Origin: Gammaproteobacteria bacterium
Lineage (GTDB): Bacteria; Pseudomonadota; Gammaproteobacteria; Steroidobacterales; Foliamicaceae
DNA: 64,000 nt
NCBI GenBank assembly: GCA_011523505.1
Contig: WTGP01000012.1
Coordinates: 83,038-147,037, forward strand
Direction: 5' to 3'
Positions within the stretch are counted from its first letter, which is position 1; every line of letters begins with the position of its first letter. Below are positions 18,983-28,119 of the stretch, in pieces. A program made the position numbers and the translations under genes. The notes beneath the pieces were generated by a model. The model saw nothing but the letters and a program-made list of their open reading frames with translations. It had not been told where the DNA came from and ran no database searches.

Positions 18983-21814
18983 ATGACCCCGAACGAGTTC
19001 ATTGCCAAGTGGCAAGCCTCCGAGTTGAAGGAGCGTTCGGCGGCCCAGGAGCACTTCATTGATCTTTGCCGATTGCTCGGAGAGCCCACACCCGCAGACG
19101 ACGACCCGACCGGCGATCGCTACTGCTTTGAACGGGGAGCACGTAAGGACACCGGCGGCGACGGCTGGGCGGATGTCTGGAAGCGGGGGCACTTCGCTTG
19201 GGAGTACAAGGGCAAGCACGCCAATCTCGATAAGGCATTCCAGCAGTTGCGGCGGTACGCCTTGGCGCTGGAGAACCCGCCGCTACTGATCGTTTCGGAC
19301 ATGGCCCGGTTCCGGATCACCACGAATTGGACCAACAGCATTAGCGTGGTGCGCGAATTCTCACTGGCCGAACTCGAGGACGGCGCGAACCGCAACCTGC
19401 TCAAATGGGCAATGTCGGATCCGGAGCGCTTGCGGCCGGGAGAAACGCGGCAGATGGTGACGGAGCGGGCGGCCGCAACGTTTTCCGAACTGGCGCAGTC
19501 CCTGCGGGACCGGGGACATGAACCACAGGCCGTAGCGCACTTCGTGAACCGCCTGGTGTTCTGCATGTTCGCTGAAGATATCGGTCTGCTGCCGGATGAC
19601 ATGTTCACTCGGATGCTCGAACAGGCACGTACGCAGCCAGATGAATTCGTGGTGCTTGCCCAGGATCTGTTCGGAGCCATGTCTACGGGCGGTCGTATCG
19701 GATTCGAACCGGTCGCATGGTTCAATGGCGGACTGTTTGACGATGACAGCGCGCTGCCGCTGGGCGCGGCGGAGATTCAGACGGCGCTCAAGGCTGCAGC
19801 GCTCGACTGGTCTGAAATTGATCCTTCCATCCTGGGCACGCTATTCGAACGCGGACTCGATCCGGACAAGCGGTCGCAACTGGGTGCGCACTACACCGAC
19901 CGCGACAAGATCATGCGAATCGTGGATCCTGTGATCGTCCGTCCCCTACTCGCCGAATGGGAGCACACCAAGGCCGACATTGAGGCAGCGATGGTGCGGG
20001 CGGCAAAGGCTGGATCGCCATCGGCGCGGACGAAGGTGCACAACAAAGCGAAGGGGATACTCCGTGCGTTTCTTGAGCGGCTTCGGACATTCACTGTGCT
20101 GGATCCTGCTTGCGGATCGGGGAACTTCCTCTACCTGGCGTTGCAGGCGCTCAAGGATATCGAACACCGGGTTCATATAGAGGCCGAGGCGATGGGTCTT
20201 GAGCGCGGCTTCCCTGCTGTCGGTCCGATCAACGTAAAGGGCATCGAGATCAATCCCTACGCCGCCGAACTCGCACGGGTGTCCGTATGGATTGGCGAGA
20301 TCCAATGGATGCGGCGCAATGGCTTCAGCGAGGAGCGCGATCCGATACTTAAGCCGCTGGACAATATTGAATGCCGGGATGCAATCCTCGCGCCGGATGG
20401 GAGTGAGTCGGAGTGGCCACACGCTGATGTCGTAATAGGGAATCCACCGTTTCTGGGTAACAGGAAGGCGCGTAAAGAATTGGGCAACAGCTATGTCGAC
20501 ATGTTATCGGCTGCCTACCGTGGCCTGATCAAAGGAAAACCCGACTTGGTTTGCTACTGGTTTGCAAAAGCAGGACGCTTAATTGAGAACGGAGCAATTT
20601 TGCGCACGGGTCTAGTCGCTACAAACTCAATTCGTGGTGGTACTAACCGATTAGTTCTGAAGCGAATTCTCGAACATTCCGTAATCTACGATGCGTGGCC
20701 CGATGAACCTTGGGTAGTGGAAGGTGCCGCGGTCCGAGTGTCCTTAGTATGTTTTACCCTAAAGAACGCAGCCGTTCCGATTCGCTACGAAGACGCAGAA
20801 ACATCGCAGATCAATGCGAATCTTTCAGCCGGGCCACTTGATTTAACCCTTGCTGAACGAATAAGAGAAAACCGAGGCGTGGCATTCCAGGGTGTTGTAA
20901 AGCGAGGGAAGTTTGATGTCTCTGGCGATATGGCGAGAGATTGGCTTTGTTTGCCAGCCAACCCGAACGGTCGCACTAATGCCGAAGTCTTACGTCCCCG
21001 GACTAACGCCATGGACATTACACGCCGACCATCAGGCAAGTGGATCGTAGATTTTGGTGAGAATATGTGCGAAGAAGAGGCGGCCCTATTCGAGGCGCCT
21101 TTTGAGTACGTGGAACAACATGTCAAAACTGAACGCCAACAGAACAGTGAACCGGAAAGTCGGGAGTTCTGGTTCAGACATTGGAATACGCGCCCCGCAA
21201 TGCGGAAGGCACTCAAAGGGAAAGCGCGCTTTATCGCCACTCCGTGTGTCGCCAAGCACCGGTTGTTTGTCTGGCTGAAAGCGGGGGTTTGCCCGGATCA
21301 TGCGCTAATCGTCTTCGCTCGAGACGACGACACAATCTTCGGGATACTGCACAGCCGCTTTCACGAGACCTGGTCACTACGGCAAGGCACCGACTTGGTA
21401 GACAGACCGCGTTACACACCCACTACTACATTCGGGACGTTCCCCTTCCCGAAAGGTCTCTCTCCGGACATTCCAGCCGAGAACTTTGCGAACGATACAC
21501 GAGCGATCGTCATAGCCGAGGCGGCCGGGCGCTTGGTTCAATTGCGCGACCGCTGGCTCAATCCGCCTGAATGGGTGGAATGGGTGAATGAGCCAGTGCC
21601 AGGCTTTCCCAAGCGGCCCGTTGCGCGGGACGCAACGGCCGCCAAGGAACTCAAGGCCCGTACGCTCACCAAACTCTACAACGCTCGACCGCAATGGCTG
21701 GCCGATGCCCATGCCAGGCTCGATACCGCTGTGGCGAACGCGTATGGGTGGGATGCTGATATTTCGGAGGAAGACGCGTTGGCGGAGCTACTAGCGCTCA
21801 ATTTGTCCCAATAG
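18983..21814 (+). CDS. MmeI-family type IIL/IIG restriction-modification enzyme (fused nuclease + N6-adenine methyltransferase + specificity domain)
   Basis: 943-aa ORF with an MmeI-like N-terminus (FIAKWQASELKERSAAQEHFIDLCRLLG). It carries a nuclease D...EYK motif (GWADVWKRGHFAWEYKGK), a SAM motif (LDPACGSGNFL) and catalytic VIGNPPF. Confidence 0.85.
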   Translation: MTPNEFIAKWQASELKERSAAQEHFIDLCRLLGEPTPADDDPTGDRYCFERGARKDTGGDGWADVWKRGHFAWEYKGKHANLDKAFQQLRRYALALENPPLLIVSDMARFRITTNWTNSISVVREFSLAELEDGANRNLLKWAMSDPERLRPGETRQMVTERAAATFSELAQSLRDRGHEPQAVAHFVNRLVFCMFAEDIGLLPDDMFTRMLEQARTQPDEFVVLAQDLFGAMSTGGRIGFEPVAWFNGGLFDDDSALPLGAAEIQTALKAAALDWSEIDPSILGTLFERGLDPDKRSQLGAHYTDRDKIMRIVDPVIVRPLLAEWEHTKADIEAAMVRAAKAGSPSARTKVHNKAKGILRAFLERLRTFTVLDPACGSGNFLYLALQALKDIEHRVHIEAEAMGLERGFPAVGPINVKGIEINPYAAELARVSVWIGEIQWMRRNGFSEERDPILKPLDNIECRDAILAPDGSESEWPHADVVIGNPPFLGNRKARKELGNSYVDMLSAAYRGLIKGKPDLVCYWFAKAGRLIENGAILRTGLVATNSIRGGTNRLVLKRILEHSVIYDAWPDEPWVVEGAAVRVSLVCFTLKNAAVPIRYEDAETSQINANLSAGPLDLTLAERIRENRGVAFQGVVKRGKFDVSGDMARDWLCLPANPNGRTNAEVLRPRTNAMDITRRPSGKWIVDFGENMCEEEAALFEAPFEYVEQHVKTERQQNSEPESREFWFRHWNTRPAMRKALKGKARFIATPCVAKHRLFVWLKAGVCPDHALIVFARDDDTIFGILHSRFHETWSLRQGTDLVDRPRYTPTTTFGTFPFPKGLSPDIPAENFANDTRAIVIAEAAGRLVQLRDRWLNPPEWVEWVNEPVPGFPKRPVARDATAAKELKARTLTKLYNARPQWLADAHARLDTAVANAYGWDADISEEDALAELLALNLSQ

Positions 21815-23632: not shown

Positions 23633-24058
23633 CTATGAGTTCCGCCTGCGTGTGAGGCCTTTCAAGAAACCTCTGAACCTTGCCCTTGCACCGGTCTGCG
23701 TCGCTTTACGTTCCTTCAGCGCTTGAGCAGCTTCCCTTTCCTGGGCCTGCCTTGTTGCCCAGCGTTGCATTGGCGAGCACCACAAAATCTGGTTGTTGCG
23801 AATCCAAAAGTGACTCCGGCACTTGAGGTTGGAGTTGCCGATCGATGGATCGAAAGTGACACTCTTGCCGTCATACATCATCCGGAACCTGATAGGGTCC
23901 AGCACGAACTCTGAGAGCTGGCCGCACCCGCAGGGGCATCTCAGCACGACCGTCCTGTGCTTCATGCTGATGTACACGACCCCCGGGACCAGGTCCTTTC
24001 CGTCCGACGGGATGTACTCGACGAATTCTGGGATTACCGATCTCAGGCGCCGCCTCAT
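23633..24058 (-). CDS. DUF6527-family protein (ubiquitin-like cassette component)
   Basis: These are the last 141 codons of track ORF 23633-24658, starting MRRRLRSVIPEF. ATG at 24058-24056 forms ATGA with the E1 stop at 24057-24055. The CPCGCG and CRSHFWIRNNQILW motifs match DUF6527 as I remember it. Confidence 0.65.
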   Translation of the reverse strand: MRRRLRSVIPEFVEYIPSDGKDLVPGVVYISMKHRTVVLRCPCGCGQLSEFVLDPIRFRMMYDGKSVTFDPSIGNSNLKCRSHFWIRNNQILWCSPMQRWATRQAQEREAAQALKERKATQTGARARFRGFLKGLTRRRNS

Positions 24059-25179
24059 GACTCCGTCTTCTTCAGCAGGTCGTTGCCTTCGATTTGGTAA
24101 CGGACGAGCCAGCCCTTCGTCTCTTCTTCGTACTGCCCTATGTGTCGCCGCCACATGCCTACTGCCAGCGCTGCGTTCAATGCGCCCACATCCGCCAGCT
24201 GCAATGCACGATATTCCTCCTCGCCGACTCCTTCGATCGTCGGAATGCCTATCCGCCATCGGCCCGGGTCTTCGCCGGAGAAGAAGACCTGACAGCTGCC
24301 CCGAACGCGTCCGTTCCGGCGTTGAATTCCCATACCGACGTCCACGAAGGGGATTTCGGCTTCTTCCAGCTTCTGGCACAAGGCGGAGCGTACGTCGGTC
24401 TTGTCCACCGCGATGAAGACGAAATTCAGCCCATCGAACGAGTCGACGGGGTCGTCCGAACGCCAGTACTGCCCGCAGACTGAAAGGCCGCGTCGCATTT
24501 GATCGTATTGGGTCCCGTAGAACTCGGCCTTGTTGTTGTCGATTGCTTCCTGGCCTGCCCAGCCCGGGGCCCGAAGAAGATTGCGTCCTTCTATGTCGTC
24601 TCCATCCCAGATCCGTATTTCCCGGACATCCGTCTTGCTCATCATGTCCAGGATCCATAGCCCTACACCGCCGAGACCCACGATCCCGATTCGTTGGCCT
24701 CTTGCGCGAGCCCGCCAGTCCTGCATGGCTTGGTCGTCCTCGCCTTCGATTTCGAACCGGAAGATGGGCTCGACCTGCTTGCGTTGTTCTTCACCGAGCG
24801 CGCCGGCGACCCGCGACACATATACGGTCAAAGCGTGCCACGCGTTGTCGTAATCTCCGTCATCACGCATGATTGAAATGACGCACTGGTCGGTCCCGTC
24901 GGTCCAGAGCATATTGCCGACCGGGTTCCCGTCTGCCTGGTATGCGTGTCCCTTGTCGACCCCGGTTAAGAGGGCAGCGTGAGCTGCTCGGTTCGCGTTC
25001 TCCAGTGCTCGCAGGGCTAGTCCGTCACCTTGTATTCCGACCGAGATTTGGCACGTTCCTACAGCGCCGCTCCTTTTTCTGTATGGCACGCCTACTATTG
25101 AGATGAGGTTGTCTTCCACTTCAACCGTCCATCCGCGCCGCCCGGCGTCCTGCCGCAACAGCTCCTCATATTCGGTCAT
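24055..25179 (-). CDS. ThiF/E1-like adenylyltransferase with ~150-aa N-terminal domain of unknown type
   Basis: 374-aa ORF. IGIVGLGGVGLWILDMMSKTDVREIRIWDGDDIEGRNLLR is the Rossmann/ATP-binding signature of the ThiF/MoeB/E1 family. Confidence 0.8.
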   Translation of the reverse strand: MTEYEELLRQDAGRRGWTVEVEDNLISIVGVPYRKRSGAVGTCQISVGIQGDGLALRALENANRAAHAALLTGVDKGHAYQADGNPVGNMLWTDGTDQCVISIMRDDGDYDNAWHALTVYVSRVAGALGEEQRKQVEPIFRFEIEGEDDQAMQDWRARARGQRIGIVGLGGVGLWILDMMSKTDVREIRIWDGDDIEGRNLLRAPGWAGQEAIDNNKAEFYGTQYDQMRRGLSVCGQYWRSDDPVDSFDGLNFVFIAVDKTDVRSALCQKLEEAEIPFVDVGMGIQRRNGRVRGSCQVFFSGEDPGRWRIGIPTIEGVGEEEYRALQLADVGALNAALAVGMWRRHIGQYEEETKGWLVRYQIEGNDLLKKTES

Positions 25180-25230
25180 TGGATTTGCGCCTGTCCCGGT
25201 CCGGGTCAGGCCGGGCCATACGGGTTGTGC

Positions 25231-25602
25231 TTAGGACAGGTGCGCCGGATCCACCTGAACGCTAAAGCCGTCTTCAACTTTCACGCTCTCTCCTTGCAGC
25301 AGGATGCCTTTTTCGCCATTTGCCCTTGTGTAGTGAATGGCTGGATTGCCTTGGATCGTCCGATCGGGACTAAGTTTGTCCCACTCTTCCTTGACTTCCT
25401 CGTACTTGATTTCGTTTCGGGGCCACTTCACGCTCCGCCCCGCGATCACGATCTCGTATCCCGCCTTGCGATCTTCCATTCTTATGGCCTCCACTCTGGT
25501 ATTGCCGGGGTTTTTCGGCGGGTACCTTATCACGGCGGGCCACTTTTCGGACGACTCAGAGACAGTACTATGGACCGCGTGGTATGCGGTTTGCGTGCCC
25601 AT
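25231..25602 (-). CDS. multiubiquitin-like beta-grasp protein
   Basis: YEIVIAGRSVKWPRNEIKYEEVKEEWDKL...AIHYTRANGEKGILLQGESVKVEDGFSVQV fits the prokaryotic multiubiquitin pattern from memory. An alternative start at M42 (25479) would give 82 aa. There is no C-terminal Gly-Gly. Confidence 0.6.
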   Translation of the reverse strand: MGTQTAYHAVHSTVSESSEKWPAVIRYPPKNPGNTRVEAIRMEDRKAGYEIVIAGRSVKWPRNEIKYEEVKEEWDKLSPDRTIQGNPAIHYTRANGEKGILLQGESVKVEDGFSVQVDPAHLS

Positions 25603-25661: not shown

Positions 25662-26387
25662 ATGCCCGGAAAAACCGACATTGAATGGACCGATGCGACC
25701 TGGAACCCTGTAACGGGTTGCACGAAGATCACCCGGGGCTGCGATAATTGCTACGCGGAGCGCTTCGCCGAGCGCTGGCGCGGGATCAAGGGACATCCTT
25801 ACGAACAGGGCTTTGATCTGCGCTTGTGGCCATCGCGGTTGGATCAGCCCCTGAAGTGGAAAAAGCCCCGGATGATCTTCGTCAATTCGATGAGCGATTT
25901 GTTTCACAAGAAGGTCGACCGACACTTCATTGACCAGGTCTTCGAGCGGATGGAGGAGGCCAATCAACATATCTACCAGGTCCTAACCAAGCGGAGCTCG
26001 CTCATGCGGAATTACTTGCGCAGGCGGTATGCGGAGCGTGCGGCTCCGGCGCACATTTGGTGCGGCGTGTCGGTGGAGGACTGTACTGGGCTGGCACGAA
26101 TCCGCCATCTGCAGGCGGCACCTGCAACCATTCGGTTTCTGTCGATCGAGCCATTGCTGGGGCCGCTGGAGGACCTCGACCTGGAAGGCATCTCCTGGGT
26201 CATCGTCGGCGGCGAAAGCGGTCCTAAAGCCCGCAAGATGCGTGGCGAGTGGGTGGCGAGAATCCGCGATCAATGCGAGCAAGCTGGGGTCGCATTCTTC
26301 TTCAAACAGTGGGGTGGAAGAACGCCGAAGTCGAACGGGCGCGAACTAGACGGGCTTGAATATAATTCGCTGCCGGCATTGCCGTAA
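25662..26387 (+). CDS. DUF5131 (phage Gp37/Gp68) three-Cys-motif protein
   Basis: 241-aa ORF. N-terminal IEWTDATWNPVTGCTKITRGCDNCYAE carries a C-x6-C-x2-C motif, characteristic of the family. Confidence 0.8.
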   Translation: MPGKTDIEWTDATWNPVTGCTKITRGCDNCYAERFAERWRGIKGHPYEQGFDLRLWPSRLDQPLKWKKPRMIFVNSMSDLFHKKVDRHFIDQVFERMEEANQHIYQVLTKRSSLMRNYLRRRYAERAAPAHIWCGVSVEDCTGLARIRHLQAAPATIRFLSIEPLLGPLEDLDLEGISWVIVGGESGPKARKMRGEWVARIRDQCEQAGVAFFFKQWGGRTPKSNGRELDGLEYNSLPALP

Positions 26388-27647
26388 TTGGAGGAGGCGT
26401 TGTCGTTTGAATGGGCGCCGGGCGAGCAGCCGCCGATACTTGAGCCACACAGCGAAGCCAAGTTGCGGGTATTGCGGGCCTATCTGCACGCCTACTGCGA
26501 TACGTTAAACCTTCGGTTCCAGCGCGACGAATTCCGCTTAGATCTCGTTGACGGGTTCTGCGGGGGCGGAACCTACCGCGAAATAGATGGATCTATTGTT
26601 TCCGGTAGCCCCCTGATCATGCTCGAGGAAATGCAGGCCGCCGACCAGCGTTTGAACCAGAACCGAAGGAAGGCCTTGAGCGTGGACTATCAATGCTACT
26701 TCGTGGACAAAGAGCGGCCGCACATCGAACACTTGCGTGATGTGCTCAGTGAGCGAGGATACGGGTCTGAGGATGACCGCATCCTGGTGAGGGAAGGCCG
26801 TTTTGAAGCGGAATGCGGCGCCATCATCGAATCCATCCTCCGCCGTCAGCCCCGCGCAGGGCGAGCAATCTTTCTGCTGGACCAGACCGGGTACTCGCAG
26901 GTGGACCTGGACTTGATCCGCGGCATCTTTCGCCAGCTGCCTGCCGCCGAGGTGATCTTGACCTACGCTGCCGATGCGCTGATCAATTTTCTGGCGGGCC
27001 GTCCGGAGGTCCTGGTCCGGCTTGAAGGATTGGGACTGGACCGCGCGCAGGCCCTTGATCTCATTGAGCATAAACAGAGGGGCCAGCATGCGCTCATCCA
27101 GCGTACGTTGAAAGACCTAATACTTAGCGCAACCGGAGCAACCTACTACACCCCTTTTTTCATTCGCCCTGTAGTCTCCCGGCGTGCGCTGTGGTTTGTC
27201 CACCTTTCGAAGCATCCAACGGCCCGTGATGTCATGTTGCAGCTTCATTGGGAACTGAGCAATACGTTTGAGCACTACGGCAACGGAGGCCTCGGCATGC
27301 TGGGCTGGGATGCGATGAAAGATCTAGACGCGCTCGACCTGTTCAATTTCACCGCGGAAGACGAGGAGGCCGTACGCCTGGACTTGATGGAATCCCTTCC
27401 ACGTGAATTGGATGCCGCGGTGTCGAAGGAGCCGGTGCCGGTCGGTGCGGTATACCGCCAGGTAGCCAATCAAACTGCCGCGACCCGCTCGCAATTGGAC
27501 AAGGTCATCCTACAGCTATTCCGTGAGCGGGAATACGACATTCGTGACAAGAACAACCGGCGTCGAACGCGGCGTATCCTGCGCTTGCAGCCTACCGATC
27601 ACATCCTCCTGCCGGACAATCTGACGCTGCCGTTTCGAGCAAAATAG
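26388..27647 (+). CDS. tcmP: three-Cys-motif partner protein TcmP-like
   Basis: 419-aa ORF. TTG at 26388 directly abuts TAA at 26385-26387 of the DUF5131 gene. HSEAKLRVLRAYLHAY and the pairing with DUF5131 match TIGR04474 as I remember it. Confidence 0.65.
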   Translation: MEEALSFEWAPGEQPPILEPHSEAKLRVLRAYLHAYCDTLNLRFQRDEFRLDLVDGFCGGGTYREIDGSIVSGSPLIMLEEMQAADQRLNQNRRKALSVDYQCYFVDKERPHIEHLRDVLSERGYGSEDDRILVREGRFEAECGAIIESILRRQPRAGRAIFLLDQTGYSQVDLDLIRGIFRQLPAAEVILTYAADALINFLAGRPEVLVRLEGLGLDRAQALDLIEHKQRGQHALIQRTLKDLILSATGATYYTPFFIRPVVSRRALWFVHLSKHPTARDVMLQLHWELSNTFEHYGNGGLGMLGWDAMKDLDALDLFNFTAEDEEAVRLDLMESLPRELDAAVSKEPVPVGAVYRQVANQTAATRSQLDKVILQLFREREYDIRDKNNRRRTRRILRLQPTDHILLPDNLTLPFRAK

Positions 27648-27974
27648 CGCTTACCCAAATCGCGGTCATCAGGTTCCGCTCCGCCAGCGCATCGGCACGT
27701 TTTTTCCGCTGTCATATTGAGTTCTGCTAGGCTGGTTGTCGGGGTGCTACATTCGCTCAGCCAAGCCTGCACAAGTACTCTAGGCGGAAGCCCGCGAATC
27801 GCTGACCGGAGCCCTGCCGAATTTACATTGTCGACCCTTTACAAACTCTAACCGCAGTGCATTGGGCCTACAACAATAGCGTCCCCCAAACCTTCACAAA
27901 GGCCATCGTAAGGGCCACCACATCTCAATGAAACACATGAAATATCTATATATCAATAACTAAAGAGATTGTGA

Positions 27975-28048
27975 TGGGCCGTGAGGGAATCGAACCCGCA
28001 ACCAATGGATTAAGAGTCCACTGCTCTACCTAGTTGAGCTAACGGCCC
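27975..28048 (-). tRNA. tRNA-Lys (anticodon CTT), no encoded CCA, C-U mismatch in T-stem
   Basis: I folded the reverse complement GGGCCGTTAGCTCAACTAGGTAGAGCAGTGGACTCTTAATCCATTGGTTGCGGGTTCGATTCCCTCACGGCCCA by hand. The anticodon loop is CTCTTAA. The T-stem GCGGG/CCCTC has one mismatch. The 3' flank is TCA, not CCA. Confidence 0.8.
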
Positions 28049-28119
28049 AGTGTGGGTGTGGCGTTGAACGGAACGCCAGCCGGTGGGGGTGCAATATTGC
28101 CACAGCCGGCGGTGAAGGG

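What the first reader, a model, noticed from the sequence alone, without database searches (positions are those of the whole stretch)
25662..27647. DUF5131 (Gp37/Gp68, three-Cys motif) + TcmP partner pair of unknown function, divergent from the ubiquitin-like cassette
- The two genes abut exactly, with TAA at 26385-26387 and TTG at 26388.
- The first carries the C-x6-C-x2-C motif (GCTKITRGCDNCYAE), reminiscent of Fe-S/radical-SAM-like chemistry.
- The pairing with TcmP is a known conserved gene pair whose biochemical role, to my knowledge, is unresolved.
- Its position inside a defence island next to RM and ubiquitin-like genes suggests a nucleic-acid modification or restriction role.
Basis: partly seen in the sequence, partly recalled or inferred. 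Interest (0 to 1): 0.6.

Follow-up and report, generated by a model that had tools for sequence, protein, structure and literature searches.

The report
Mobile radical-SAM plus TcmP gene pair
Two adjacent genes at the edge of a foreign, defence-rich island encode a radical-SAM-type iron-sulfur enzyme and a methyltransferase-shaped partner; the pair is real, widespread, already listed as an untested anti-phage candidate, and its chemistry is still unknown.

Summary
Window 25662-26387 encodes a full-length DUF5131/PF07505 protein with an invariant C-x6-C-x2-C motif. The next gene is TcmP (TIGR04474). One correction: TcmP most likely starts at TTG 26400, behind a GGAGGAGG ribosome-binding site, not at TTG 26388.

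Both proteins match the untested PADLOC candidates PDC-M30 and PDC-M41, so the pair is catalogued but uncharacterised.

- **TcmP** models as a class I SAM-methyltransferase fold, closest to the rRNA m6A enzyme RlmJ. The SAM-binding motif is conserved, a weak winged-helix sits at the C-terminus, and there is no hypervariable target-recognition domain.
- **DUF5131** weakly resembles spore photoproduct lyase, a DNA-repair radical-SAM enzyme.
- **Pairing:** DUF5131 lies upstream on the same strand in 78 of 80 related loci, directly adjacent in about 74. A congener carries an in-frame fusion.
- **Mobility:** the ~2.1-kb cassette alone moves between phyla. It also sits on conjugative plasmids and in the immunity region of Gordonia temperate phages.
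- **Against a strict toxin/antidote model:** congeners show either gene intact beside a broken partner.
- **SOS link:** some relatives carry lineage-typical LexA boxes. This copy has none, and no lexA was found in its host assembly.

Most likely the two proteins form a DNA-directed radical-SAM complex used in conflict or damage response. This is a new member of a known, uncharacterised kind, of moderate interest.

The parts
25662..26387 (+). DUF5131 / 'phage Gp37/Gp68' gene (241 aa), a radical-SAM-superfamily subgroup
   Evidence: PF07505 E 8.9e-97, full length. PADLOC PDC-M30B/M41B E 1e-102. PHROG 2045. About 72-86% identical to homologues from many phyla.
25719..25751 (+). Codons of the three-Cys motif C20-x6-C27-x2-C30
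   Evidence: Translation. All three Cys are invariant in alignment A2.
26390..26397 (+). Shine-Dalgarno GGAGGAGG for TcmP
   Evidence: Sequence. It lies just upstream of TTG 26400. A related GGAGGA is kept inside the fused ORF of L001.
26400..27647 (+). TcmP gene (415 aa from the likely start; the maximal ORF starts at 26388)
   Evidence: TIGR04474 E 2e-57. PADLOC PDC-M30A E 6e-18. 415-aa gene call P0003. AlphaFold model with pLDDT 79 and a class I methyltransferase fold; best PDB match RlmJ, E 5e-8.
26550..26570 (+). TcmP motif I (D55-G-F-C-G59-G-G61), the predicted SAM-binding loop
   Evidence: D55 and G59 are invariant, and G56, F57, G60 and G61 at least 90% conserved, across 50 diverse family members.
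26880..26894 (+). TcmP motif-IV position D165-Q-T-G-Y after strand beta-4
   Evidence: D165 and G168 are invariant and Q166 at least 90% conserved in the broad family. Secondary-structure order from the model.
27330..27533 (+). C-terminal winged-helix-like region of TcmP (residues 315-382)
   Evidence: PF22560 GMT-wHTH, E 2.1e-5, 25.3 bits. This is below the 27-bit cut-off. Helix-helix-helix-strand pattern in the model.
27648..27972 (.). Island-specific spacer between TcmP and tRNA-Lys
   Evidence: Homology with 20 of 21 congeners starts only at 27971-27975; one reaches 27816. No Rfam family found here.
27973..28049 (-). tRNA-Lys(CTT). Its 3' end is the boundary between the low-GC island and the core genome.
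   Evidence: ARAGORN and Rfam. GC is 0.55 to the left and 0.67 to the right. Congener homology breakpoint.
23633..25602 (-). Divergent neighbour: ubiquitin-like (multiubiquitin / ThiF E1 / DUF6527) operon. Not part of the pair.
Evidence: Pfam PF14452, PF00899 and PF20137. It is absent next to the pair in the other loci examined.
18983..21814 (+). MmeI-like type IIL RM enzyme in the same island. Context, not shown to be functionally linked.
   Evidence: MmeI_N/hel/Mtase/TRD/C domains. Relatives 63-79% identical lie within 0.3-4 kb of the pair in three other lineages.

Best explanation
The two genes are one copy of a self-contained, horizontally mobile ~2.1-kb cassette. Its products most likely work as a complex on DNA.

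TcmP is a SAM-binding class I methyltransferase-fold protein of the RlmJ type with a C-terminal winged helix. Its inferred role is to dock on nucleic acid and present a base or lesion. DUF5131 is an unusual radical-SAM-superfamily enzyme (C-x6-C-x2-C) whose nearest structural and network neighbour is the DNA-repair enzyme spore photoproduct lyase. Its inferred role is to carry out [4Fe-4S]/SAM radical chemistry on that target.

In this genome the cassette is cargo at the tRNA-Lys edge of a foreign defence island. My preferred biological role is therefore conflict-related: a DNA modification or processing step that either protects the carrying element or acts on invading DNA. This is the role implied by its listing as PADLOC candidate PDC-M30.

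Shown here: family identity, fold class, conserved motifs, obligate pairing, one fusion, and cassette mobility. Inferred only: complex formation, DNA as the substrate, radical chemistry, and the defence phenotype.
For: - **Identity:**
- **Radical-SAM status:** DUF5131 is listed as a radical-SAM subgroup (Megacluster-5-2) next to spore photoproduct lyase (5-3). The best structural hits of the model are SPL (E 0.011, probability 0.96) and lipoyl synthase.
- **TcmP fold:** RlmJ is the best PDB match at E 5e-8, and the 50 listed hits are almost all class I SAM-binding folds. Motif I, D165, K25 and E188 are invariant across a family of 1039 clusters.
- **Coupling:** DUF5131 lies upstream on the same strand in 78 of 80 loci, directly adjacent in about 74. 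There is an in-frame 662-aa fusion in a congener. Pairwise divergences of the two proteins correlate (Mantel r 0.42; 0 of 2000 permutations reached it).
- **Mobility:** 1007 of 1173 locus pairs share only the cassette. Cross-phylum pairs are 83-91% identical in nucleotides, from 65-113 nt upstream of the start to 2-15 nt past the stop. Cassette GC is below flank GC in 61 of 62 loci.
- **Conflict context:**
  - The island holds MmeI-like RM, a Bub operon and other systems.
  - RM enzymes are the commonest neighbours in 31 other loci.
  - The pair is found on 69 plasmids, including the sampled IncP pCAR1-type plasmids and S. meliloti pSymA.
  - In Gordonia temperate phages the pair lies between the integrase and the repressor.
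  - The distribution is patchy and decaying within the genus.
Against: - No experiment exists for either family.
- The SPL similarity is weak (TM about 0.4), and the cluster-binding N-terminus of the model has low confidence.
- The canonical CX3CX2C motif and the Pfam Radical_SAM model are not matched.
- The nucleic-acid methyltransferases among TcmP's structural hits act on RNA, not DNA.
- The winged-helix match is below Pfam's cut-off.
- Many neighbours are ordinary metabolic genes.
- No conserved effector or nuclease accompanies the pair.
- DUF5131 occurs alone in about 170 phage records and alone in two congeners, so it does not strictly need TcmP.
- LexA boxes in some relatives point to DNA damage rather than defence.
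Confidence: 0.4

Rival explanations
1. The pair is a DNA-damage response or repair cassette. DUF5131 reverses or processes a DNA lesion by radical chemistry, as spore photoproduct lyase does. TcmP is the lesion-recognition and base-flipping partner. The cassette spreads like the LexA-regulated imuA-imuB-dnaE2 mutagenesis cassette does.
For: - SPL is the nearest structural and network neighbour.
- Perfect, lineage-matched LexA boxes lie 58-104 nt upstream of DUF5131. CTGT-N8-ACAG occurs in two gammaproteobacterial loci and GAAC-N7-GAAC in four alphaproteobacterial loci. Background frequencies are 0.001 and 0.005 per 170-nt window. Half-sites are conserved while the spacers differ between L006 and L008.
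- In a mycobacterial prophage, DUF5131 sits among RecE/RecT, a DNA methylase, HNH and RuvC genes.
- Earlier notes report the same LexA link and identify M. tuberculosis Rv2735c/Rv2734 as a pair. Those genes are co-transcribed with recA-recX and induced by mitomycin C (PMC3062782, PMC5057432).
Against: - Perfect boxes occur in only 6 of 77 loci, which represent about 3 independent lineages.
- This window has no LexA box. The host assembly has no detectable LexA (PF01726 and PF00717 both absent at 95% completeness), and its recA has no SOS box.
- I could not verify that Rv2735c/Rv2734 are homologues.
- Repair genes are not usually this patchy, this often decayed, or embedded among RM systems.
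Confidence: 0.27
2. The pair is an RNA-modification module. TcmP is an RlmJ-like rRNA or tRNA methyltransferase. DUF5131 is a Cfr/RlmN-like radical partner. Together they alter a conserved RNA site and give resistance to a ribosome-targeting compound or to an RNA-cleaving toxin.
For: - The best structural relatives of TcmP are RNA methyltransferases: RlmJ, CmoA, MnmM, RsmG and Trm1. No DNA methyltransferase appears in the top 50.
- TcmP has no hypervariable recognition domain, which suggests a constant target.
- Both proteins are unusually conserved across phyla.
- Spread of one cassette across phyla resembles a resistance gene.
Against: - There is no sequence-level match to RlmJ or any RNA methyltransferase family.
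- SPL-likeness, the winged helix, the LexA boxes and the phage DNA-metabolism context all point to DNA.
- No resistance or translation genes recur next to the pair.
Confidence: 0.12
3. The pair is a restriction-modification-like or toxin-antitoxin-like addiction module. One protein damages nucleic acid and the other protects it, which would explain movement as a minimal selfish cassette.
For: - Minimal two-gene cassette mobility with sharp boundaries, like type II RM units.
- Residence among RM systems.
- Methyltransferase fold of TcmP.
Against: - Both orders of decay are seen. Intact DUF5131 occurs with truncated TcmP (G017, G009) or with no TcmP (G012, G020). Intact TcmP occurs with a DUF5131 remnant (G010, L007) or with none (L056).
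- DUF5131 occurs alone in many phages.
- There is no nuclease domain and no variable target-recognition domain.
Confidence: 0.08
4. DUF5131 acts like viperin and makes a modified nucleotide or another small molecule. TcmP is a regulator or a second tailoring enzyme.
For: - Prokaryotic viperins are a precedent for radical-SAM enzymes in defence islands (established knowledge).
- The pair has no dedicated effector.
Against: - There is no similarity to viperin in sequence or fold searches.
- No nucleotide kinase or transporter partners recur.
- The winged helix and methyltransferase fold of the partner suit a polymer substrate better.
Confidence: 0.06

Closest known systems
PADLOC-DB v2 phage-defence candidates PDC-M30 and PDC-M41 (A = TcmP-like, B = DUF5131)
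   Same: Both window proteins hit both components (B: E 1e-102; A: E 6e-18 for M30 and 8e-11 for M41). They are adjacent in one operon.
   Different: These are computational candidates. In the searched literature they appear only in lists of detected systems. No phenotype or mechanism is known, so the match is a label, not an explanation.
[quoted passage not shown]
   Same: Full-length matches above the curated cut-offs. Gene order and adjacency are as in the family definition.
   Different: Nothing differs. This copy is an ordinary member, apart from the same-frame arrangement with a single stop codon. A congener has it fused.
Spore photoproduct lyase (SplB), a radical-SAM DNA-repair enzyme
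   Same: It is the best structural match of the DUF5131 model and the neighbouring subgroup in the radical-SAM similarity network. Both are small alpha/beta-barrel enzymes with an N-terminal Cys triad. LexA-type control is seen in some relatives of the pair.
   Different: The match is weak (E 0.011, about 10% identity). The Cys spacing is CX6CX2C, not CX3CX2C. SPL has no methyltransferase-fold partner. No lesion substrate is known for DUF5131.
RlmJ (E. coli 23S rRNA m6A2030 methyltransferase; Pfam PF04378)
   Same: It is the best fold match of TcmP residues 1 to about 290 (E 5e-8). TcmP has a glycine-rich motif I, an invariant Asp after strand 4 and an invariant Lys in the N-terminal helix. 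From memory of the RlmJ literature, the catalytic residues are K18 and D164.
   Different: There is no detectable sequence relationship. Motif IV is D-Q-T-G-[YF] rather than D-P-S-Y. TcmP has an extra conserved His-rich segment (H272, H287, H296) and a C-terminal winged helix. It is always paired with DUF5131.
NCBIfam 'radical SAM mobile pair' proteins A/B (TIGR04471/TIGR04470)
   Same: DUF5131 is distantly related to pair protein A (E 7e-23). The model name also points to a sporadically distributed two-gene set.
   Different: The score of 81 bits is far below the 355-bit cut-off. In that pair both proteins are radical-SAM enzymes. Here the partner has a methyltransferase fold.
Type IIL/IIG and type ISP restriction-modification enzymes (for example MmeI)
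   Same: They are frequent neighbours of the pair. They are also mobile, low-GC and island-borne.
   Different: The pair has no nuclease domain and no variable target-recognition domain. Either gene can survive without the other.

Membership tests
Pfam PF07505 (DUF5131, phage Gp37/Gp68) | Full-length HMM match above the gathering score | tested here: met
   323.8 bits against 28.9; residues 4-238 cover model positions 1-243.
Pfam PF07505 (DUF5131, phage Gp37/Gp68) | N-terminal three-Cys motif C-x6-C-x2-C | tested here: met
   C20, C27 and C30 are present and invariant in 34 homologues.
NCBIfam TIGR04474 (TcmP) | HMM match above the curated cut-off | tested here: met
   195.1 bits against 53; residues 20-289 cover model positions 1-261.
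NCBIfam TIGR04474 (TcmP) | Encoded next to a three-Cys-motif (PF07505) gene | tested here: met
   It lies directly downstream in the window. The same holds in about 74 of 80 related loci.
PADLOC PDC-M30 / PDC-M41 | Both component HMMs matched by adjacent genes | tested here: met
   Component B at E 1e-102 and component A at E 6e-18.
PADLOC PDC-M30 / PDC-M41 | Protection against phage | not testable with these tools
   No experimental report was found.
Radical SAM superfamily | Canonical CX3CX2C motif and a match to the Pfam Radical_SAM model | tested here: not met
   The motif is CX6CX2C. Only PF07505 was reported at E <= 0.01.
Radical SAM superfamily | Curated listing as a superfamily subgroup | tested here: met
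   RadicalSAM.org/SFLD table: DUF5131 = Megacluster-5-2 (PMC9477430).
Radical SAM superfamily | Partial TIM-barrel fold similar to known members | tested here: inconclusive
   Best hits are SPL (E 0.011) and LipA (E 0.063). The model has pLDDT 71, and the cluster loop is below 50.
Radical SAM superfamily | [4Fe-4S] cluster binding and reductive SAM cleavage | not testable with these tools
   This needs anaerobic biochemistry.
RlmJ-like class I methyltransferases | Seven-strand Rossmann-like fold with a glycine-rich SAM loop | tested here: met
   Model pLDDT 79; RlmJ at E 5e-8; D55-G-F-x-G-G-G conserved.
RlmJ-like class I methyltransferases | Sequence membership (PF04378) and the (D/N)PP(Y/F)-type motif IV | tested here: not met
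   There is no Pfam or PDB sequence match. The motif is D-Q-T-G-[YF].
Restriction-modification system | A nuclease component plus a methyltransferase with a variable target-recognition domain, and dependence of the nuclease on the methylase | tested here: not met
   No nuclease domain. No hypervariable segment. Either gene is found intact without the other.
LexA (SOS) regulon member | Lineage-appropriate LexA operator upstream, and LexA present in the host | tested here: not met
   No box within 260 nt upstream of the window copy. PF01726 and PF00717 are both absent from the host assembly. The feature is met in six relatives.

The most novel reading that the evidence does not exclude
DUF5131-TcmP is the first DNA-directed conflict or repair system built on radical-SAM chemistry. 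A methyltransferase-fold subunit selects and flips a base or lesion in DNA. A near-invariant, SPL-like radical enzyme then rewrites it. The ~2.1-kb cassette spreads between phyla on its own, without any recombinase gene, and in some lineages it is placed under the DNA-damage repressor LexA.
Probability: 0.22. Interest if true: 0.8.

Novelty: new member of a known kind. Interest (0 to 1): 0.42.

Why it matters
The family is large. TcmP alone has about 1,000 clusters at 50% identity. DUF5131 is found in about 180 phage genomes, and the pair on 69 plasmids, on S. meliloti pSymA and in many phyla. It has curated names and a place in a defence-system database, yet no known chemistry.

If the pair acts on DNA through radical-SAM chemistry, it would add a new enzymology to bacterial immunity or DNA repair. 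It would also explain why phages carry the same enzyme. This particular copy adds little on its own. Its value is as a clean, intact, compact example (2 kb, with a clear ribosome-binding site and a fused relative) that could be cloned and tested.

Tried and rejected
- **PDB sequence searches.** Searches with the single proteins and with profiles found no relatives.
- **Fold search against viral structures.** It gave only generic methyltransferase folds.
- **Viral contig scan.** A scan of IMG/VR with patterns from the close TcmP subfamily found nothing.
- **TcmP in phages.** tblastn with the window's TcmP found one fragment among 50,697 phage records. I nearly concluded that TcmP is absent from phages. 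That was wrong: Gordonia phage Fairfaxidum gp43, annotated 'methyltransferase', is a true TcmP (109 bits).
- **CarolAnn lead.** The known Gordonia prophage defence pair CarolAnn gp43/44 is RexAB-like and unrelated.
- **'GMT' name lead.** The 'GMT' in the weak winged-helix match led nowhere useful.
- **Terminal repeats.** I looked for terminal repeats or target duplications at the sharp cassette boundaries and found nothing consistent.
- **Promoters and terminators.** The scan around the pair found no promoter-like site and no more terminator-like sites than chance.
- **A LexA box in this window.** None was found, and the host lacks lexA.
- **Addiction-module reading.** I considered an RM-like model and rejected it because both orders of gene decay occur.
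Full report
**1. The observation**

The window has an ATG-initiated ORF at 25662-26387 (241 aa). An ORF in the same frame follows at 26388-27647 (419 aa), separated only by TAA at 26385-26387.

The first protein matches Pfam PF07505 (DUF5131, formerly 'phage Gp37/Gp68') over its whole length, with E 8.9e-97. It contains GCTKITRGCDNCYAE. In an alignment of 34 homologues, C20, C27 and C30 are invariant, and so are C134 and C205.

One correction concerns the TcmP start:
- The collection's gene call for the identical protein is 415 aa.
- Homologues start at the residue aligned with L5.
- A perfect GGAGGAGG lies at 26390-26397, just before TTG 26400.

The gene therefore probably starts at 26400, which leaves a 12-nt spacer instead of exact abutment.

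**2. What is already catalogued**

Both proteins hit the two components of the PADLOC-DB v2 'phage defence candidates' PDC-M30 and PDC-M41. DUF5131 scores E 1e-102 and TcmP scores E 6e-18. DUF5131 also matches PHROG 2045, of unknown function. TcmP matches no PHROG.

Full-text searches found no functional study.
- DUF5131 appears once, in the RadicalSAM.org table. There it is Megacluster-5-2 of the radical-SAM superfamily, beside spore photoproduct lyase at 5-3.
- TcmP appears only as an annotation in two Sinorhizobium papers. In one of them it is listed directly below the Hna defence gene among genes up-regulated with NolR.
- PDC-M30 appears only in lists of detected systems.

**3. The proteins**

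*TcmP.* An AlphaFold model built on 41 homologues (pLDDT 79, pTM 0.82) shows a seven-strand class I methyltransferase core in residues 45 to about 275. It also has a helical insert and a C-terminal helix-rich region.

- The best PDB matches are all E. coli RlmJ, the 23S rRNA m6A2030 methyltransferase, at E 5e-8. Other SAM enzymes follow. The nucleic-acid methyltransferases in the list act on RNA.
- At sequence level there is no relative in the PDB.
- The family comprises 1039 clusters at 50% identity.
- Across 50 diverse members, including the pCAR1, pSymA and Gordonia phage proteins, the invariant residues are K25, Y32, D55, G59, G73, L116, D165, G168 and E188. H21, S22, G56, F57, G60, G61, Q166, H272, H287, W288 and H296 are at least 90% conserved.
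- The glycine-rich SAM loop (D-G-F-x-G-G-G) and an Asp after strand 4 (D-Q-T-G-[YF]) are therefore under strong selection. This argues for real ligand binding.
- There is no hypervariable, indel-rich segment of the kind that forms target-recognition domains in RM methyltransferases.
- The C-terminal match to a winged-helix model (PF22560) is weak and below the cut-off.

*DUF5131.* The model is poorer (pLDDT 71, with the Cys loop below 50). It shows an alpha/beta barrel-like core. Its best, weak matches are spore photoproduct lyase (E 0.011, probability 0.96) and lipoyl synthase, both radical-SAM enzymes. It is also distantly related to NCBIfam 'radical SAM mobile pair protein A' (E 7e-23, far below the cut-off).

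**4. The pair as a unit**

A scan of one genome per species returned 80 loci with TcmP 51-62% identical to the window's.

- A DUF5131 gene lies upstream on the same strand in 78 of them, directly adjacent in about 74.
- In three of the four loci where the genes are separated (L026, L030, L041), the gap holds an inserted IS transposase, a Panacea-type antitoxin gene or a PIN toxin gene. In the fourth (L051) DUF5131 itself carries a 320-aa C-terminal extension.
- In the closest relative, a congener, the two genes are fused into one 662-aa ORF by small indels. The internal GGAGGA and GTG survive in that fusion.
- The window copy has the two ORFs in the same frame with a single TAA between them.
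- Pairwise divergences of the two proteins correlate (Mantel r 0.42; 0 of 2000 permutations reached it). They are not tightly locked, and some loci have clearly exchanged one partner.

**5. Mobility**

Among locus pairs with at least 1.5 kb of flank on both sides, 1007 of 1173 share nucleotide homology only over the cassette. Nothing else is shared in the 10 kb on either side.

The most similar such pairs come from different phyla. Examples are Bryobacterales with Latescibacterota, Binatia with Thermodesulfobacteriota, and Alphaproteobacteria with Bryobacterales. They are 83-91% identical in nucleotides. Homology starts 65-113 nt upstream of the DUF5131 start codon and ends 2-15 nt after the TcmP stop. 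I found no consistent terminal repeats.

Cassette GC is below that of its flanks in 61 of 62 loci.

Most source genomes are uncultured MAGs. One is explicitly Candidatus Synechococcus spongiarum, and the set of phyla looks like a marine sponge microbiome. That last point is my inference from record titles.

Outside chromosomes:
- TcmP is on 69 of 72,556 plasmids. In the two sampled conjugative IncP plasmids (pCAR1 and a P. aeruginosa plasmid) an integrase gene, DUF5131 and TcmP lie head to tail. It is also on S. meliloti pSymA.
- DUF5131 is in 180 of 50,697 phage records.
- In a group of Gordonia temperate phages it lies convergent with a gene annotated 'methyltransferase' that is a genuine TcmP (109 bits). 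This pair sits between the integrase and the immunity repressor.
- In a mycobacterial prophage DUF5131 stands alone among RecE/RecT, a DNA methylase, HNH and RuvC genes.

**6. Context in this genome**

The host assembly (3.1 Mb, 95% complete) has one copy of the pair.

GC is 0.50-0.58 from position 1 to about 28000 and 0.66-0.71 beyond. Homology with 20 of 21 congeners begins exactly at 27971-27975. That is the 3' end of tRNA-Lys, the first of four tRNA genes. The pair is therefore the tRNA-proximal cargo of a foreign island.

The island also holds:
- a multiubiquitin/E1/DUF6527 operon, transcribed divergently with 59 nt between the start codons;
- two unknown genes;
- an MmeI-like RM enzyme;
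- a DUF4268 protein;
- further systems described in earlier notes.

Within the genus, TcmP is found in 9 of 22 genomes and DUF5131 in 10 of 22, at different chromosomal places and in several states:
- intact pairs;
- the fusion;
- intact DUF5131 with a truncated TcmP (G017, G009);
- intact DUF5131 with no TcmP (G012, next to an Abi_alpha gene; G020, followed by a two-transmembrane protein);
- intact TcmP with only a DUF5131 remnant (G010).

Neither protein can therefore be a toxin that needs the other as an antidote.

**7. Neighbours elsewhere**

I took 122 flanking ORFs from 31 loci. The commonest Pfam families were Type_ISP_C (6), N6_Mtase (5), Eco57I (4) and MmeI domains (2). UvrD helicases, integrases, HicB/PIN and transposases followed. 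Ordinary metabolic genes were also present.

The commonest PADLOC models were type IIG and type I RM components, mad2, type III methylases and GajB.

Sixteen of 80 loci have an MmeI-family gene within 10 kb. Three of these, from three lineages, are 63-79% identical to the window's enzyme.

No third gene is conserved with the pair.

**8. A lead from earlier notes, tested**

Earlier notes on other genomes reported LexA operators in front of such pairs. I tested this on my own loci.

- Perfect CTGT-N8-ACAG boxes lie about 68 nt upstream of DUF5131 in two gammaproteobacterial loci.
- Perfect GAAC-N7-GAAC boxes lie 58-104 nt upstream in four alphaproteobacterial loci.
- Background frequencies are 0.001 and 0.005 per 170-nt window.
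- These six loci represent about three independent lineages.
- Between L006 and L008 the half-sites are kept while the spacer differs.
- Other lineages carry palindromes that overlap a TATAAA-like element, for example CTGGTATAAACTACCAG. Their regulator is unknown.

The window copy has no such box. The host assembly has no LexA domain (PF01726 and PF00717 both absent), and its recA has no SOS box.

The link to M. tuberculosis Rv2735c/Rv2734 rests on the earlier notes, and I could not check the homology. Those genes are co-transcribed with recA-recX and induced by mitomycin C.

**9. Interpretation**

Secure:
- This is an intact, ordinary member of the catalogued DUF5131-TcmP pair.
- The pair is a tightly coupled, independently mobile cassette.
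- It resides in islands, plasmids and temperate phages.

Probable but inferred:
- The two proteins form a complex (from the fusion and the obligate adjacency).
- TcmP binds SAM.
- DUF5131 is an Fe-S radical enzyme.
- The substrate is a nucleic acid, most likely DNA. This rests on SPL-likeness, the winged helix, the phage DNA-metabolism context and the LexA control seen in relatives.

The biological role is open. For this copy I favour a conflict-related DNA modification or processing function (0.40), because of the island and neighbour context. A damage-repair role is a serious rival (0.27). RNA modification (0.12), an addiction module (0.08) and small-molecule synthesis (0.06) follow.

**10. 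Verdict**

The finding is a new member of a known but uncharacterised kind and is of moderate interest. Its main value is as a compact, testable example of a large family with unknown chemistry.

Noticed in passing
window 26385-26402; L001 9263-11251; L085 712-2700: The two ORFs are in the same reading frame, separated by one TAA. In a same-genus genome small indels fuse them into a 662-aa protein that still contains the internal GGAGGA and GTG.
   Followed up: yes
whole host assembly G000; recA at L134: No LexA DNA-binding domain (PF01726) or S24 peptidase domain (PF00717) was detected in the 95%-complete assembly. recA has no recognisable SOS box. The organism may lack a classical SOS regulon.
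   Followed up: partly
window 18983-21814; L033 5215-7989; L053 15397-16539; L076 6401-8998: Close relatives (63-79% identity) of the window's MmeI-like RM enzyme lie 0.3-4 kb from the DUF5131-TcmP pair in an alphaproteobacterium, a Nitrospirales genome and a Pseudomonadales genome. This recurring neighbourhood may be more than defence-island clustering.
   Followed up: partly
L020 9184-9262, L032 9192-9271, L057, L068, L073, L078 upstream regions: Cassettes in Acidobacteriota, Latescibacterota and Dehalococcoidia carry a palindrome around a TATAAA-like element (for example CTGGTATAAACTACCAG), about 60-80 nt upstream of DUF5131. It looks like an operator overlapping the -10 region. The regulator is unknown.
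   Followed up: no
L026 9146-9799; L030 8419-9278; L041 8751-9227: Where DUF5131 and TcmP are separated, the gap contains an IS (DDE) transposase, a Panacea/SocA antitoxin-type gene or a PIN-domain toxin gene. Selfish elements insert between the two genes.
   Followed up: partly
L127 710-1435 (G020); L126 2533-3609 (G012): Congeners have an intact solitary DUF5131. In one it is followed on the same strand by a 241-aa protein that looks by eye to have two transmembrane helices and has no Pfam match. In the other it is convergent with an Abi_alpha (abortive infection) gene.
   Followed up: partly
L094 4225-7236 (pCAR1); L096 5144-8308 (P. aeruginosa IncP plasmid): On these conjugative IncP-type plasmids a site-specific integrase gene sits about 30 nt upstream of DUF5131-TcmP on the same strand. 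This suggests a three-gene transcription unit.
   Followed up: no
L016/L022, L054/L055, L020/L032, L013/L017: Cassettes 88-94% identical in nucleotides are shared between MAGs assigned to different phyla. Some are on megabase contigs, so mis-binning cannot explain all of them. The set of taxa resembles a marine sponge microbiome.
   Followed up: partly
window 1-27972 versus 28450-64000: The whole left part of the window (GC 0.55) is compositionally foreign relative to the core (GC 0.67). Its left end lies outside the window, and no integrase was looked for.
   Followed up: no
L051 8109-9788: One Latescibacterota locus encodes a 559-aa DUF5131 with a 320-aa C-terminal extension of unknown nature, upstream of TcmP.
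   Followed up: no
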